A stretch of 64,000 nucleotides of DNA from Escherichia coli (lineage in GTDB: Bacteria; Pseudomonadota; Gammaproteobacteria; Enterobacterales; Enterobacteriaceae), in assembly GCF_046105845.1 (NCBI RefSeq), contig NZ_CP151004.1. One strand, given 5' to 3'. How positions within the stretch are numbered: position 1 is the stretch's first letter; every line of letters begins with the position of its first letter. A program made the position numbers and the translations under genes. The notes beneath the pieces were generated by a model that was not told the DNA's origin, searched no databases, and saw only the letters and a list, made by a program, of their open reading frames with translations. Of this stretch, positions 19,036-22,225 are shown piece after piece.

Positions 19036-19078
19036 TTTGCCGGATAATATAAAAAGTTATCCGGCAAATTATTTTTTA
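19036..19078 (+). terminator. Rho-independent terminator after yggM
   Basis: 12-bp stem TTTGCCGGATAA/TTATCCGGCAAA, 9-nt loop, then TTATTTTTT; the T-tract overlaps the stop codon of the convergent TRAP large-permease gene. Confidence 0.75.
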
Positions 19079-20377
19079 CATTAGCCCTAGTAGCTGTGGA
19101 ATGAACAAGGATATTTGCGGGATGTAAGTGATCATCATCAACGCGATTAACAATGCGGCATAAAATGGCAGCAATGGTTTGATCAAATGTTGAATCTTCA
19201 CACCTGAAATAGAACAACCAACAAATAGCGCACTACCCACCGGCGGTGTTAACAGCCCAATACAAAGGTTGGCCACCATCATAATACCGAAATGTACCGG
19301 ATCCATTCCCAGCTCTTGTGCAATCGGCAAGAAGATTGGTGTGAAGATTAGTACAGCCGGTGTCATGTCCATAAAGATGCCGACAATTAATAAGACGATA
19401 TTAATCAGCAGCAATATGACCAGTGGGTTATCAGAAATCCCCATCAACGCGTCGCTGATCATATAAGGAATATCAGCATTGGTCATTGCCCAGGACATGC
19501 CCACGGAAAAACCGATCAACAGTAATACAATCGAAGTGGTAACAACCGATTCCAGAATCAGTTTGGGTAAATCGCGCCATTTTACTTCCCGGTAAATCAG
19601 CACCGAGAGGATAAATGTGTAGACAACGGCAATTGCTGACGCTTCAGTTGCGGTAAAAATGCCGCCCAGAATGCCGCCCATTACAATGAACACCAGAAGC
19701 AAACTTGGTAAGGCATCCAGAAACGCTTTACATGCCTGAGCAAAGGTTGCTCTTTCTGAAAGTGGGTAGCCACGGCGTTTAGCAATAATGCCGCAGACTA
19801 TCATTACCGCGAGACCCATTAAGATCCCTGGCAAATATCCCGCCATAAATAGCGATGCTACAGAAACGCCGCCAGCTGTCAGGGAAAACACAATTAACAC
19901 GTTTGAGGGCGGTATCAGTAATCCAGTAATACAAGATGAGACGTTTACAGCGGTAGAAAATGCCGGATCATAACCTTCTTTGGTCTGAATGGGATTCAGT
20001 GTGCCACCAACGGCAGCAGCTGCCGCAACAGCTGAACCAGAAATGGAACCAAACATCATATTCGCCAGGACGTTCACATGACCAAGCGAACCAGGAACGC
20101 GGCCAACCATTACCTGGGCGAGGTTAATCAAACGTATCGCAATACCGCCGCTGTTCATCAGCGTTCCGGCAAAGATGAAAAAGGGGATTGCTAATAGGGC
20201 AAAGTTATCCAGTCCATTAGCCAGTCGCTGCGAAACAGTGATTGCCGCGATATCCTAGGGAAACATCAACAGCATTGAAGCTACAGTGGCAATACCGATT
20301 GAGAACGAAATGGGCACACCAATAAAGACCAGCACAAAAAAACAGCCAAACAGTGTAAGCGCGATATAACTATCCAT
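19076..20377 (-). pseudogene. TRAP transporter large permease (DctM family), interrupted by an in-frame TAG at codon 41
   Basis: ATG near 20377 directly after the small-permease stop; translation reads MDSYIALTLFGCFFVLVFIGVPISFSIGIATVASMLLMFP-stop-DIAAITVSQRL..., and the track's 360-aa ORF (19076..20158) restarts at internal Met 74 in the same frame. Confidence 0.8.
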
Positions 20378-20889
20378 TAACTGGCCTCCTGCGCAGGTTG
20401 TTTCAGTTGTTGAATGCTTTGATTAATAAAACACAAGGCATAAAACATCATCACCAATCCACTTAATGGCAGAATGATATATACGTATCCCATCGGTATT
20501 TGCATCGCGGCAGATACCTGTGATGTTGCCAGTGTTTTATCAATTAATTTCAGGCCACCAGTCACAATGACCGAACCGGCAAAACCTAAAATAAGAACGT
20601 TAATGACTATACTAAGAAGTAATTGCTTGCGCTTATTCAGGGCGAGAGCAAATAAATCGATAGAGAGATGTCGCTGCGCGCCGACGGTATATGCAGCACC
20701 TAATAATCCTACCCAGATCATCAAAAAGCGTGCCAGCTCATCGGTTAATGTACTTGGCTGGTTAAGTACGTAGCGGCTAAATACTTGCCAGACTACGCAT
20801 ACAACCAGAGCAAGCATTACGGCGACAGAAAACGCGGCAATGACGCGGTCTACCGCAAGTTTCAGGCGGTTAAATATCATTGTAAGCAT
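20377..20889 (-). CDS. TRAP transporter small permease (DctQ family)
   Basis: 170-aa ORF with four predicted TM helices, placed between the binding-protein and large-permease genes. Confidence 0.85.
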   Translation of the reverse strand: MLTMIFNRLKLAVDRVIAAFSVAVMLALVVCVVWQVFSRYVLNQPSTLTDELARFLMIWVGLLGAAYTVGAQRHLSIDLFALALNKRKQLLLSIVINVLILGFAGSVIVTGGLKLIDKTLATSQVSAAMQIPMGYVYIILPLSGLVMMFYALCFINQSIQQLKQPAQEAS

Positions 20890-20924
20890 CCTGGAAAATC
20901 AGGGCCAGAGACTGGCCCGAAATA

Positions 20925-21911
20925 TTATTGAGCAGCGTTGTCGAATTTCTCTAACAAAGCAGCTTGTTTTGGATCTTTTTTGAAGTCGTCAAACAGAGGT
21001 TGAACTGCGGCACGGAATGGGGCTTTATCAACCTTAACGATTTCACCACCCATAGCTTTCGCCTGAGCACGTGTGTCAGCGTCAATTTTTTCCCACAATT
21101 TTTGTTGATAAGCTTCGGATTTCTTCGCCGCTGTTTCGAGGATTTGTTGCTGTTCTGGGGTTAATTTATTCCATGTTTTGGTGGAGATAACCAAAAAGTC
21201 AGGAATTGAGGCATGTTCATCTTCAGAAAAGACTTTGGCAATTTCGATATGTCGAGTCTGCACCCAGGAAGGCACGTTATTTTCTGCGCCATCTACTACA
21301 CCTTGCTGCATCGCAGTATAAACTTCGCCAAATGAAATTGGAGTGGGTGAGCCACCCATCAGTTCAATCATTTTGATGGTGGTCGGGCTTGGCTGAACAC
21401 GAATTTTCAGCCCTTTAAGATCTTCTGGCTTAGTAATCGGTTTTTTCGCATAGAAACTGCGAGTACCCGCTACATAAGCTGATAAAGCAAAAAAGCCTTT
21501 ATCTTTTGTTGAATCCATAATTTCTTTACCAACTTCACCAAAAACCACTTTGTTGAAGTGCGCCTGATCTTTAAATAAGAACGGCAAATTATAGATAGCA
21601 TAAATATTATCAAAAGACTCCAGATCACTGGCGGAACCTTTGGTCATATCCAGTGCACCATTTTGCAACAACTCCATAGTTTCTCGCGCATTACCCATCT
21701 GGCTGCTGGGATAAATACGGATCACCATATTATCTTTTGACAGCTGTTTTACCTCTTTCGCCAGCTCTTCAAAACTCTGATGTACAACATGACTTCTTTC
21801 CAGGTTGTGTGCTAACTTTAACGTCACTTTTTCTGCGGCGTTTACGCCAGTGCTAACCAGAGCCAGCAAGGATGCGCAGACTAATGAGCGGGTAAATGAC
21901 CTCATTTTCAT
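20925..21911 (-). CDS. TRAP transporter periplasmic substrate-binding protein (DctP family)
   Basis: 328-aa ORF with signal peptide (ALVSTGVNAAEK); RBS AGGGAG; first gene of a P-Q-M arrangement. Confidence 0.88.
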   Translation of the reverse strand: MKMRSFTRSLVCASLLALVSTGVNAAEKVTLKLAHNLERSHVVHQSFEELAKEVKQLSKDNMVIRIYPSSQMGNARETMELLQNGALDMTKGSASDLESFDNIYAIYNLPFLFKDQAHFNKVVFGEVGKEIMDSTKDKGFFALSAYVAGTRSFYAKKPITKPEDLKGLKIRVQPSPTTIKMIELMGGSPTPISFGEVYTAMQQGVVDGAENNVPSWVQTRHIEIAKVFSEDEHASIPDFLVISTKTWNKLTPEQQQILETAAKKSEAYQQKLWEKIDADTRAQAKAMGGEIVKVDKAPFRAAVQPLFDDFKKDPKQAALLEKFDNAAQ

Positions 21912-22225
21912 AAAAAAACTCCCTGTTGAAGGATGGAAATTGGTTGATATCTAATTGTGCTTATCAGTGCTTTGTGCGACAAATTGGTTAACCTGTCTGA
22001 CAACTTGTCTATGTTTATCACAACTTGAAATAAAGTCAGAAATTAAATATTAAATTTGTGCGCCAGGTTGTACATGTTTATAATCAATAAATGATGAGTA
22101 AATATTCATTAAACATATATAATAAATGCCGTCGATATTTATTCAGTTAGAAATATATTTTTGCCGAAGTTAATTAACGGGGGGGGTAAAAGAAGTGATT
22201 AATGCGCCCGTAGGCGCATTAATGA

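What the first reader, a model, noticed from the sequence alone, without database searches (positions are those of the whole stretch)
19036..22225. AT-rich TRAP-transporter operon inserted between yggM and hemW
yggM and hemW (yggW) are, as I recall, adjacent in K-12. Here about 3.2 kb separates them and encodes a DctP-type binding protein, a DctQ small permease and a DctM large permease on the minus strand, behind a 314-bp very AT-rich upstream region (21912..22225). Sampled 60-nt stretches inside the block are about 30-38% GC, well below the flanking core genes. There is no regulator, integrase or IS, and the yggM terminator T-tract overlaps the dctM stop, so the block is seamlessly integrated. 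The substrate is unknown and the binding protein is clearly not YiaO, the binding protein of the only TRAP system I know in K-12.
Basis: partly seen in the sequence, partly recalled or inferred. Interest (0 to 1): 0.62.

Follow-up and report, generated by a model that had tools for sequence, protein, structure and literature searches.

The report
Ancestral hexuronate-type TRAP operon, locally inactivated
The three genes between yggM and hemW are an old enterobacterial TRAP uptake system, most likely for glucuronate or galacturonate, that K-12 has lost rather than one this strain gained, and here a stop codon has broken its large membrane subunit.

Summary
The dctP-dctQ-dctM operon is real and lies at the stated coordinates. 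K-12 has only a 154-bp spacer there, made of REP elements.

1. **The block is not 30-38% GC.** It is 43.1% GC, about the same as the neighbouring core gene yggM (44.1%).
2. **It is not an insertion.** The order hemW-dctPQM-(yggM)-(ansB)-yggN is kept in Salmonella, Citrobacter, Kluyvera, Klebsiella, Pluralibacter and Phytobacter. The TRAP genes are about as diverged between genera as the flanking core genes. The block is therefore ancestral. About 72% of complete E. coli genomes have lost it and 27.5% keep it.
3. **dctM is not intact.** Codon 41, an invariant Trp, is TAG. The change is C->T at the inner cytosine of a CCAGG (Dcm) site.

The likely substrate is a hexuronate:
- The best solved relatives are D-glucuronate/D-galacturonate binding proteins.
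- 60%-identical homologues sit inside uxaABC-exuR clusters.
- The conserved promoter boxes match the boxes upstream of exuT/uxaC, exuR, uxaB and uxuA in K-12.

This is an ordinary, uncharacterised member of a known transporter class. Its interest is modest.

The parts
19036..19078 (+). yggM intrinsic terminator: a 13-bp stem hairpin at 19036-19068 plus a T-tract. The T-tract overlaps the dctM stop codon on the other strand.
   Evidence: sequence
19076..20377 (-). dctM, the TRAP large permease (433 codons). In this window it is a pseudogene: codon 41 is TAG. The start ATG overlaps the dctQ stop (TAATG).
   Evidence: Trp41 is kept in all 40 close orthologues, i.e. those of 88% or more N-terminal identity; TIGR00786, 474 bits, for the intact allele in L001
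20254..20258 (+). Former Dcm site. It reads CCAGG in intact alleles and CTAGG here. The C->T change at 20256 creates the amber codon at 20255-20257 on the minus strand.
19076..20158 (-). Residual 360-aa ORF downstream of the stop, starting at Met74. It lacks the first 73 residues. It is annotated in GenBank as STF52102.1.
20377..20889 (-). dctQ, the TRAP small permease (170 aa from the first ATG; orthologues are called at 167 aa).
   Evidence: Pfam PF04290 on the orthologous products
20902..20918 (-). G+C-rich hairpin (7-bp stem, 6 G-C pairs) between the dctP stop and the dctQ start. It could be an intra-operon attenuator or RNA stabiliser that favours binding-protein expression.
   Evidence: the function is inferred
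20925..21911 (-). dctP, the periplasmic substrate-binding protein (328 aa). It has a Sec signal peptide, MKMRSFTRSLVCASLLALVSTGVNA|AEK (nt 21837-21911). Arg151, Arg171, Asn211 and Asp238 are invariant.
   Evidence: TIGR00787, 280 bits
21919..21923 (-). Shine-Dalgarno sequence GGGAG, 8-12 nt before the dctP ATG. GGAG is conserved across genera.
21947..21953 (-). TAGATAT, a conserved -10-like element (AGATAT..ACCAA in most genera).
   Evidence: its role as a promoter element is inferred
21970..21983 (-). Box 2, TTTGTCGCACAAAG, of the GT-N3-AC type. It lies 21 nt from box 1 and corresponds to ATGTCATACAG in other genera.
21981..21993 (-). GGTTAACCAATTT, of the GT-N2-AC type. It is identical to a 13-mer in the K-12 gntP-uxuA promoter region, so it is a candidate UxuR box. 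It is specific to Escherichia.
   Evidence: 2 of 1000 shuffles reach a 13-nt match
21990..22006 (-). Box 1, AAGTTGTCAGACAGGTT, a palindromic GT-N3-AC box and candidate ExuR operator. It is the highest-scoring site in the whole 64-kb window for the cross-genus matrix (16.3 bits).
22006..22022 (-). TGTGATAAACATAGACA. The TGTGA half is conserved across genera and could be a CRP half-site. The right half matches the CRP consensus poorly.
   Evidence: weak
22055..22064 (-). GGCGCACAAA, conserved as CAGCGCACAAAA in most genera about 150 nt upstream of dctP. Its function is unknown.
22198..22223 (-). hemW terminator hairpin (11-bp stem) followed by CACTTCTTTT. It separates hemW from the TRAP promoter region.
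   Evidence: I2

Best explanation

**How it would work (inferred from the family):** the secreted binding protein captures a hexuronate, D-glucuronate and/or D-galacturonate, through its carboxylate-binding arginines. It hands the sugar acid to the DctQ/DctM membrane unit, which imports it using an ion gradient.

**Regulation (inferred):** the hexuronate repressor ExuR, and in Escherichia probably also UxuR, binds two GT-N3-AC boxes 21 nt apart just upstream of a conserved -10-like element. The operon would then be switched on together with exuT, uxaCA, uxaB and uxuAB.

**History:** K-12-type E. coli have lost the operon and carry REP elements in its place.

**In this window:** the transporter is most likely dead. 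A C->T change at the methylated cytosine of a Dcm site turned the invariant Trp41 codon of dctM into an amber stop. Hexuronate uptake would then rest on ExuT.

**Shown:** gene identities, synteny, divergence, the nonsense codon and its sequence context, and the motif matches. **Inferred:** the ligand, the regulator, the loss of function and the transport mechanism.
For: **Family**
- NCBIfam dctP and dctM models score above cut-off.
- Pfam DctP, DctQ and DctM are recorded on the orthologous products.

**Ancestry**
- hemW-dctPQM-(yggM)-(ansB)-yggN is found in Salmonella enterica, four Citrobacter, Pseudocitrobacter, Kluyvera, six Klebsiella, Pluralibacter and Phytobacter.
- Amino-acid identity to the window is 84-93% for DctP and mostly 93-96% for DctM (88% in Phytobacter), against 87-93% for HemW.
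- Nucleotide and third-position identities are like those of the flanks.
- TRAP GC3 tracks the host genome.
- 1492 of 5426 complete E. coli genomes carry the block, with all but one of 1508 matches on a chromosome.
- 3911 genomes have hemW and yggM adjacent.

**Substrate**
- The best solved relatives, at E 1e-67 to 1e-61, are 4ovr, 4n15/4ln5 (Bamb_6123), 4mhf/4mij (Bpro_3107) and 4n91 (Apre_1383).
- PMC7660916 states that Apre_1383 binds D-glucuronate and Bpro_3107 binds both D-glucuronate and D-galacturonate.
- The 60%-identical operons in Aeromonas and in Pantoea sp. IMH are flanked by uxaC, uxaB, a uxaA-like gene and exuR. The NCBIfam equivalog or subfamily cut-offs are passed for UxaC, UxaB and ExuR.

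**Regulation**
- A matrix was built from 30 boxes upstream of TRAP operons in other genera.
- It scores the K-12 uxaC-exuT intergenic box at 16.8 bits, above all 127,176 background positions (maximum 12.98).
- It also finds sites upstream of exuR (10.9), uxaB (11.3 and 9.8) and in the gntP-uxuA region (11.5), each with a background frequency of about 7e-5 or less.
- The window's box 1 scores 16.3.
- uxaB has the same two-box layout, with 22-nt spacing.
- PMC4494728 gives GT-N3-AC for ExuR and GT-N2-AC for UxuR.
- A 13-mer is shared with the uxuA promoter region.

**Inactivation**
- TGG->TAG at codon 41.
- Trp41 is kept in all 40 close orthologues; only four more distant homologues carry Leu or Phe there.
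- The context is CCAGG->CTAGG.
- The identical allele appears in independent assemblies, so it is not a read error.
Against: - No binding or transport experiment exists for this protein.
- Identity to the solved hexuronate binders is only moderate: HMMER E about 1e-65, and 34-37% identity in the Foldseek alignment.
- The Asn35-Gln36 pair reported for the D-glucuronate-specific STM3169 reads Asn36-Leu37 here. Fine specificity is therefore open.
- The E. coli locus has no catabolic neighbour.
- The ExuR assignment rests on motif similarity. Other FadR-type regulators use similar TKGT/ACMA boxes.
- Box 2 is degenerate in Salmonella and Citrobacter.
- The CRP-like site has only one good half.
- The E. 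coli block has a lower GC3 than its flanks (0.39-0.48 against 0.55), which vertical descent alone does not explain.
- Residual function of the 360-aa product or amber read-through was not excluded.
Confidence: 0.62

Rival explanations
1. The block is a horizontally acquired, AT-rich island inserted between two genes that are adjacent in the ancestral E. coli arrangement.
For: - The block is absent from K-12 and from 72% of complete E. coli genomes.
- It is the lowest-GC 3.2-kb stretch in the window, at 43.1% against 51.5%.
- Its GC3 is below that of the flanks in E. coli and in Phytobacter. This hints that allelic replacement can happen at this locus.
Against: - The same position and orientation are found in at least seven other genera.
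- Between-genus divergence is like that of the flanking core genes. No donor is closer than about 82% nucleotide identity.
- There is no integrase, IS, tRNA or target duplication.
- Similarity to K-12 stops at the stop codons, and the K-12 filler is multi-copy REP DNA.
- An Escherichia sp. outside E. coli proper (L007) also has the block, with divergence matching its flanks.
Confidence: 0.1
2. The operon is a genuine ancestral TRAP system, but its substrate is another carboxylate. Candidates are an aldonate, a keto-sugar acid or an unsaturated uronate from polysaccharide lyases. The conserved boxes would then be bound by a different FadR-family regulator.
For: - The binding pocket differs from STM3169 and Apre_1383 at the Asn-Gln position.
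- In Mangrovibacter the neighbouring gene has weak similarity to an oligoalginate lyase. In Edwardsiella the neighbour is a GH1 glycosidase.
- FadR-type motifs are generic.
Against: - All of the closest solved relatives are the hexuronate group.
- The nearest homologues with informative neighbours sit in uxaABC-exuR clusters.
- The cross-genus box matrix picks out four of the five K-12 hexuronate promoter regions tested, at scores rare or absent in 127,176 background positions.
Confidence: 0.2
3. The operon still works in this strain. Either the TAG is read through or suppressed, or translation restarts at Met74 and the 360-aa product is sufficient.
For: - A 360-aa ORF remains open and is annotated as a protein.
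- dctP and dctQ are intact.
Against: - The missing 73 residues are highly conserved across genera.
- No Shine-Dalgarno sequence is evident before Met74.
- Other alleles in public assemblies also appear to disrupt the same N-terminal region and leave the same residual ORF, although some of them may be assembly errors. Taken at face value, this looks like repeated loss rather than a tolerated variant.
Confidence: 0.08

Closest known systems
Hexuronate-binding DctP-type TRAP binding proteins solved by structural genomics: Bamb_6123 (4N15/4LN5), Bpro_3107 (4MHF/4MIJ), Apre_1383 (4N91) and 4OVR
   Same: - They are the best sequence and fold matches.
- The carboxylate-binding Arg pair and the Asn are conserved, with the same spacing as reported for this group.
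- They bind D-glucuronate and/or D-galacturonate according to PMC7660916.
   Different: - Foldseek identity is only about 34-37%.
- They come from unrelated phyla.
- The window protein's ligand is untested.
- The ligands of 4OVR, 4X8R and some others rest on my memory. The database descriptions were truncated before the ligand name.
Salmonella Typhimurium STM3169-STM3171 (D-glucuronate TRAP transporter, PMC7660916)
   Same: - It is an enterobacterial dctPQM operon with no catabolic neighbours.
- Its binding protein binds a hexuronate with high affinity (Kd 0.17-0.25 uM).
- It is proposed to act alongside ExuT.
   Different: - It is probably a paralogue, not the orthologue.
- The Salmonella copy of the hemW-linked operon (P0008, 90% identical to the window protein) does not reproduce the published STM3169 mass at any sensible cleavage site.
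- Like the window protein, P0008 reads Asn36-Leu37 where STM3169 has Asn35-Gln36.
- The STM3169 sequence itself could not be retrieved here.
E. coli K-12 YiaMNO (2,3-diketo-L-gulonate TRAP transporter)
   Same: It has the same three-component architecture and belongs to the same family.
   Different: - The YiaM and YiaN equivalog models score 38 and 297 bits against cut-offs of 260 and 800.
- No YiaO model hits the binding protein.
- The locus and the predicted regulon are different.
ExuR/UxuR hexuronate regulon of E. coli (exuT, uxaCA, uxaB, uxuAB, exuR)
   Same: - The promoter carries the same box type, including the two-box layout seen at uxaB and a box next to a TGTGA element as at exuT.
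- It shares a 13-mer with the uxuA promoter region.
   Different: - Binding has not been demonstrated.
- The operon is not in K-12, so it is missing from K-12-based regulon lists.
- I recall that Suvorova et al. 2011 (J Bacteriol 193:3956) proposed new regulon members by comparative genomics. The paper is not held, so I could not check whether this operon is among them.

Membership tests
DctP-type TRAP transporter (TRAP-T family) | Periplasmic DctP-family substrate-binding protein with a signal peptide | tested here: met
   TIGR00787 scores 280 bits against a cut-off of 175, and NF037995 scores 252 bits. The N-terminus MKMRSFTRSLVCASLLALVSTGVNA|AEK is read from the sequence.
DctP-type TRAP transporter (TRAP-T family) | Conserved arginine that binds the substrate carboxylate | tested here: met
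   Arg151 and Arg171 are invariant in 15 orthologues. They align with Arg in 4ovr and 4n15. Their spacing is the same as Arg150/Arg170/Asn210 of STM3169.
DctP-type TRAP transporter (TRAP-T family) | Small (DctQ) and large (DctM) membrane subunits encoded with the binding protein | tested here: met
   The gene order is dctP-dctQ-dctM, with the dctQ stop overlapping the dctM start. Pfam PF04290 and PF06808 are recorded on the orthologous products. TIGR00786 scores 474 bits.
DctP-type TRAP transporter (TRAP-T family) | All three subunits intact, i.e. a functional member | tested here: not met
   In the window, dctM has TAG at codon 41.
Hexuronate-specific TRAP systems | Binding protein groups with proteins shown to bind D-glucuronate or D-galacturonate | tested here: met
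   The top solved matches are Bamb_6123, Bpro_3107 and Apre_1383. Their ligands are taken from PMC7660916. No formal phylogeny was built.
Hexuronate-specific TRAP systems | Demonstrated binding or transport of a hexuronate | not testable with these tools
   This needs purified protein or uptake assays.
Hexuronate-specific TRAP systems | Genomic or regulatory link to hexuronate catabolism | tested here: met
   The 60%-identical homologues lie in uxaA-like/uxaB/uxaC - dctPQM - exuR clusters. The promoter boxes match those of K-12 hexuronate promoters. The window locus itself has no catabolic neighbour.
Orthologue of Salmonella STM3169 | Same protein lineage as the characterised D-glucuronate binder | tested here: inconclusive
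   The STM3169 sequence was not retrievable. Indirect tests point to a paralogue: the published mass is not reproduced and Asn-Gln reads Asn-Leu.
YiaMNO (2,3-diketo-L-gulonate TRAP) | Scores above the NCBIfam equivalog cut-offs | tested here: not met
   The YiaM model scores 38 against 260 and the YiaN model 297 against 800. There is no YiaO hit.
Horizontally acquired genomic island | Mobility genes, tRNA or repeat boundaries, and absence from related genera at the same site | tested here: not met
   There is no integrase, IS or tRNA, and the only repeats are short and look like chance matches. The operon is present at the same site in at least seven genera. Only the low G+C content fits an island.

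The most novel reading that the evidence does not exclude
The hemW-linked TRAP operon is a high-affinity glucuronate/galacturonate scavenging arm of the ExuR/UxuR regulon that is polymorphic in E. coli. It would be repeatedly discarded by different routes:
- whole-operon replacement by REP DNA;
- IS1 insertion;
- apparent frameshifts;
- a recurrent amber mutation at a Dcm hotspot, found on two haplotypes.

That pattern would imply that its value depends on niche, for example on access to host glucuronides or plant pectin, rather than that it is neutral baggage.
Probability: 0.3. Interest if true: 0.45.

Novelty: new member of a known kind. Interest (0 to 1): 0.3.

Why it matters
- **Correcting K-12 as a reference.** Here K-12 is the derived state. 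Roughly a quarter of complete E. coli genomes, and many Klebsiella, Citrobacter and Kluyvera, carry an extra and apparently unstudied sugar-acid importer.
- **Possible link to gut and host biology.** If it is a high-affinity hexuronate system, it bears on competition for glucuronate released from host glucuronides in the gut. It also bears on the role proposed for a related Salmonella transporter in macrophages (PMC7660916).
- **A textbook mutation in the wild.** The Dcm-site amber mutation is a natural example of the 5-methylcytosine deamination hotspot.

None of this changes how TRAP transporters are understood.

Tried and rejected
- **Early operator guess.** I first read AAATTGGTTAACC as the main ExuR/UxuR operator. 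Cross-genus alignment showed that the conserved elements are the two GT-N3-AC boxes on either side of it. The GGTTAACC element is specific to Escherichia. I kept it only as a candidate UxuR box.
- **CRP site.** Only the TGTGA half is conserved and the right half is poor. I left it as weak.
- **Promoter scan.** The sigma-70 consensus scan found no promoter on the dctP strand of the intergenic region.
- **K-12 spacer.** A Smith-Waterman search of the 154-bp spacer against the block found no remnant.
- **Structure prediction.** The model built from a 15-sequence alignment was poor (pLDDT 66.7). I used it only to confirm the ranking of solved relatives. The PDB descriptions were cut off before the ligand names.
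- **Papers not held.** Vetting et al. 2015 and Suvorova et al. 2011 could not be read.
- **Literature search.** A search for yggM plus TRAP returned nothing relevant.
- **STM3169 mass check.** I compared the published mass of tagged STM3169 with the Salmonella hemW-linked protein. There was no match at a sensible cleavage site.
- **Shigella origin.** The best complete E. coli genome is only 98.7% identical over 24 kb, and no IS1 was found in the window. Exact-sequence look-up showed that the proteins come from E. coli assemblies, including STF52102.1.
- **Flanking repeat D7.** This 14-nt repeat is 86% identical and was judged to be chance.
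Full report
**What is in the window.**
- Positions 15955-25531 carry yggN, ansB (16850-17896, +), yggM (18013-19020, +), three minus-strand TRAP genes, then hemW (22226-23362, -), rdgB, yggU, yggT and yggS.
- The TRAP genes are dctP 20925-21911, dctQ 20377-20889 and dctM 19076-20377. The dctQ stop overlaps the dctM start as TAATG.
- NCBIfam places DctP in TIGR00787 (280 bits, cut-off 175) and the intact form of DctM in TIGR00786 (474 bits, cut-off 268). 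The YiaM and YiaN equivalog models fall far below their cut-offs.
- The binding protein has a typical Sec signal peptide ending VNA|AEK.
- A 13-bp-stem hairpin at 19036-19068 followed by TTATTTTTTA ends yggM, and its T-tract overlaps the dctM stop. An 11-bp-stem hairpin at 22198-22223 ends hemW. A G+C-rich hairpin at 20902-20918 sits between dctP and dctQ.
- No integrase, IS, tRNA-like boundary or convincing flanking repeat is present.

**Checking the observation.**
- K-12 has hemW and yggM with stops 154 bp apart. Similarity between K-12 and the window ends exactly at the two stop codons.
- The 154-bp K-12 spacer shares nothing with the block. It looks like three REP-type palindromes. That name comes from my own knowledge. 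What the tools show is that a query containing the spacer matches a median of 13 places per E. coli genome.
- The composition claim is overstated. The block is 43.1% GC (dctP 42.4, dctQ 43.7, dctM 46.1). The upstream 314 bp are 32.2% GC and the window as a whole is 51.5%.
- The 60-nt stretches average 43%, not 30-38%. The core gene yggM next door is 44.1%.

- dctM is interrupted. Codon 41 is TAG (20255-20257), and the mechanical ORF list shows only a 360-aa remainder.
- The intact allele in strain 21319 has TGG. Trp41 is kept in all 40 close orthologues retrieved; only four more distant homologues (Aeromonas, Pantoea sp. IMH, Mobilicoccus) carry Leu or Phe at that position.
- On the plus strand the change is CCAGG to CTAGG, a C->T transition at the inner cytosine of a Dcm site. 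By established knowledge this is the classic 5-methylcytosine deamination hotspot that creates amber codons.
- None of 1195 complete RefSeq E. coli genomes that match the surrounding 61-mer carries it exactly.
- Exact-sequence look-up finds the residual 360-aa product in 15 contigs, including GenBank STF52102.1 on a 4.74-Mb E. coli contig.
- Two contigs are 100% identical to the window over 2.7-3.7 kb. Two others carry the same TAG on a haplotype that is 98.5-99.1% identical and has an extra L7I change. So the allele is real. It has either arisen twice or moved by recombination.
- Other contigs reach the same residual ORF through frameshifts. Some of these may be assembly errors.

**Insertion or loss.**
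- The block is in 1492 of 5426 complete E. coli genomes at 95-99.4% identity, and 1507 of the 1508 matches are on chromosomes. In 3911 genomes hemW and yggM are adjacent.
- A Salmonella enterica protein 90% identical to the window DctP lies in the same place: yggS-yggT-yggU-rdgB-hemW-dctP-dctQ-dctM-yggM-ansB-yggN.
- A scan of one genome per species found the same arrangement in Citrobacter amalonaticus, C. braakii, C. sedlakii, Pseudocitrobacter, several Kluyvera, six Klebsiella species including K. pneumoniae, Pluralibacter, Phytobacter and an Escherichia sp. outside E. coli proper.
- Amino-acid identity to the window is 84-93% for DctP and mostly 93-96% for DctM (88% in Phytobacter), against 87-93% for HemW.
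- Nucleotide identity to Salmonella, Citrobacter and Klebsiella is 73-82% for the TRAP genes, with 43-56% at third positions. The flanks show 78-84%, with 50-66% at third positions. No genus offers a recent donor.
- TRAP GC3 rises and falls with the host genome.
- The parsimonious reading is an ancestral enterobacterial locus that has been lost in most E. coli.
- One loose end remains. In E. coli, and also in Phytobacter, the block's GC3 is clearly below that of its flanks. Some allelic replacement at this conserved site cannot be excluded.

**Substrate.**
- The closest solved structures by sequence (E 3.5e-67 to 6e-61) are 4ovr, 4n15/4ln5 (Bamb_6123), 4mhf/4mij (Bpro_3107), 4x8r and 4n91 (Apre_1383). 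Foldseek gives much the same ranking with a mediocre model of pLDDT 66.7.
- Herman et al. 2020 (PMC7660916) state that Apre_1383 binds D-glucuronate and that Bpro_3107 binds both D-glucuronate and D-galacturonate. They also show that Salmonella STM3169, modelled on Bamb_6123, binds D-glucuronate with a Kd of 0.17-0.25 uM.
- The window protein keeps the Arg-Arg-Asn triad with the same spacing (Arg151, Arg171, Asn211), and Asp238. All are invariant among orthologues.
- It reads Asn36-Leu37 where STM3169 has Asn35-Gln36. The Salmonella hemW-linked protein does not reproduce the published STM3169 mass. I therefore treat STM3169 as a probable paralogue.
- Where the operon is not next to hemW, its neighbours are informative in two cases. 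In Aeromonas rivuli and Pantoea sp. IMH the 60%-identical operon is flanked by glucuronate isomerase (671 bits, cut-off 387) and tagaturonate reductase (725 bits, cut-off 359). It is also flanked by an altronate-dehydratase-like gene and by ExuR (442 and 501 bits, cut-off 396).

**Regulation.**
- The upstream region is otherwise poorly conserved between genera. It nevertheless keeps TGTGA, a box (A/T)TGTC-N-GACAAC, a second box ATGTCATACAG 21 nt further on, an AGATAT..ACCAA element and the ribosome-binding site.
- Both boxes are of the GT-N3-AC type. PMC4494728 assigns this type to ExuR and other FadR-type regulators, and GT-N2-AC to UxuR.
- I built a weight matrix from 30 distinct boxes of other genera, excluding the window. 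I scored it on K-12 hexuronate promoter regions and on the rest of the window as background:

| Region scored | Best score (bits) |
|---|---|
| uxaC-exuT intergenic region (AACTTGTCATACAACTT) | 16.8 |
| uxaB upstream | 11.3 and 9.8 |
| gntP-uxuA region | 11.5 |
| exuR upstream | 10.9 |
| uxuB-uxuR region | 0.8 (no site) |
| Window box 1 (21990-22006) | 16.3 |
| Maximum of 127,176 background positions | 12.98 |

- About 0.2 hits at those background frequencies are expected in the 2780 positions searched. Five were seen.
- uxaB shows the same two-box layout, 22 nt apart.
- Between the two boxes, Escherichia has GGTTAACCAATTT, identical to a 13-mer in the uxuA promoter region. Only 2 of 1000 shuffles give a match that long.
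- I conclude that the operon most likely belongs to the ExuR regulon, and in E. coli perhaps also to the UxuR regulon. This is an inference from sequence.
- The CRP-like element has only one good half. The conserved GCGCACAAA about 150 nt upstream is unexplained.

**Overall reading and ranking.**
- The finding is a real feature, but the interpretation needs turning round. This is an ancestral, probably hexuronate-specific TRAP operon that K-12 lacks. In this strain it is very likely non-functional because of a Dcm-hotspot amber mutation in dctM.
- It is a new, uncharacterised member of a well-known transporter class. NCBI's pipeline already annotates it generically in about 1500 complete genomes.
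- I found no paper on the E. coli locus.
- Interest is modest.

Noticed in passing
window 20254-20258; L053, L054, L057, L058: The same W41* amber codon at a Dcm site occurs on two haplotypes. One is 100% identical to the window and the other is 98.5-99.1% identical with an extra L7I change. This suggests a recurrent hotspot mutation or spread by recombination.
   Followed up: partly
L050-L052, L055, L056, L059: Other public E. coli contigs reach the same residual 360-aa DctM ORF through apparent frameshifts near codons 14 and 41. L052, an NCTC-type assembly, also has broken dctP and dctQ. Some of these may be assembly or homopolymer errors.
   Followed up: partly
hit H12 (NZ_CP183129.1): One complete E. 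coli genome has an IS1 transposase inserted inside the TRAP block. This is another independent way the operon is disrupted.
   Followed up: no
cluster members named Shigella flexneri and S. sonnei: Shigella entries for these proteins are mostly fragments: binding-protein pieces of 70-75 aa and permeases of 344-428 aa. This hints at decay of the operon in Shigella.
   Followed up: no
window 22226-23948 (hemW, rdgB): hemW is unusually diverged from K-12: 95.3% nucleotide identity, with 88% at third positions. It is only 97.4% identical to strain 21319, whose TRAP genes are 99.5-99.7% identical. This points to a recombination mosaic next to the presence/absence polymorphism.
   Followed up: partly
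window 18013-19020 (yggM) and loci L003-L040: yggM is low in G+C (44%) and evolves fast. It is 62% identical in Salmonella and 34-38% in Klebsiella, Kluyvera and Phytobacter. It is missing from several genera that keep the rest of the neighbourhood.
   Followed up: no
L040 (Phytobacter diazotrophicus) 6001-8837: The TRAP genes have GC3 of 0.39-0.53 while the flanks are 0.61-0.73. This suggests the operon was replaced by a foreign allele at the conserved site in this genus.
   Followed up: no
L005 (MAG 'Collinsella sp.'), L006 (MAG 'Bacillota bacterium'), L044 ('Alicyclobacillaceae'): Short contigs in these genome bins encode the E. coli TRAP operon. L005 and L006 are about 98% identical to the window at the nucleotide level; L044 was matched only at the protein level (99%). 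They are almost certainly mis-binned or contaminating E. coli DNA.
   Followed up: no
window 22055-22064 and the equivalent position in other genera: A conserved CAGCGCACAAAA element lies about 150 nt upstream of dctP and has no assigned function.
   Followed up: no
window about 41800-45400: A second stretch of the window has G+C below 46% over 3.2 kb. It was not examined.
   Followed up: no
L035 3529-5541 (Mangrovibacter): The gene divergent from the TRAP operon has weak similarity to an oligoalginate lyase (90 bits, far below cut-off). This could point to unsaturated uronates as substrates in that genus.
   Followed up: no
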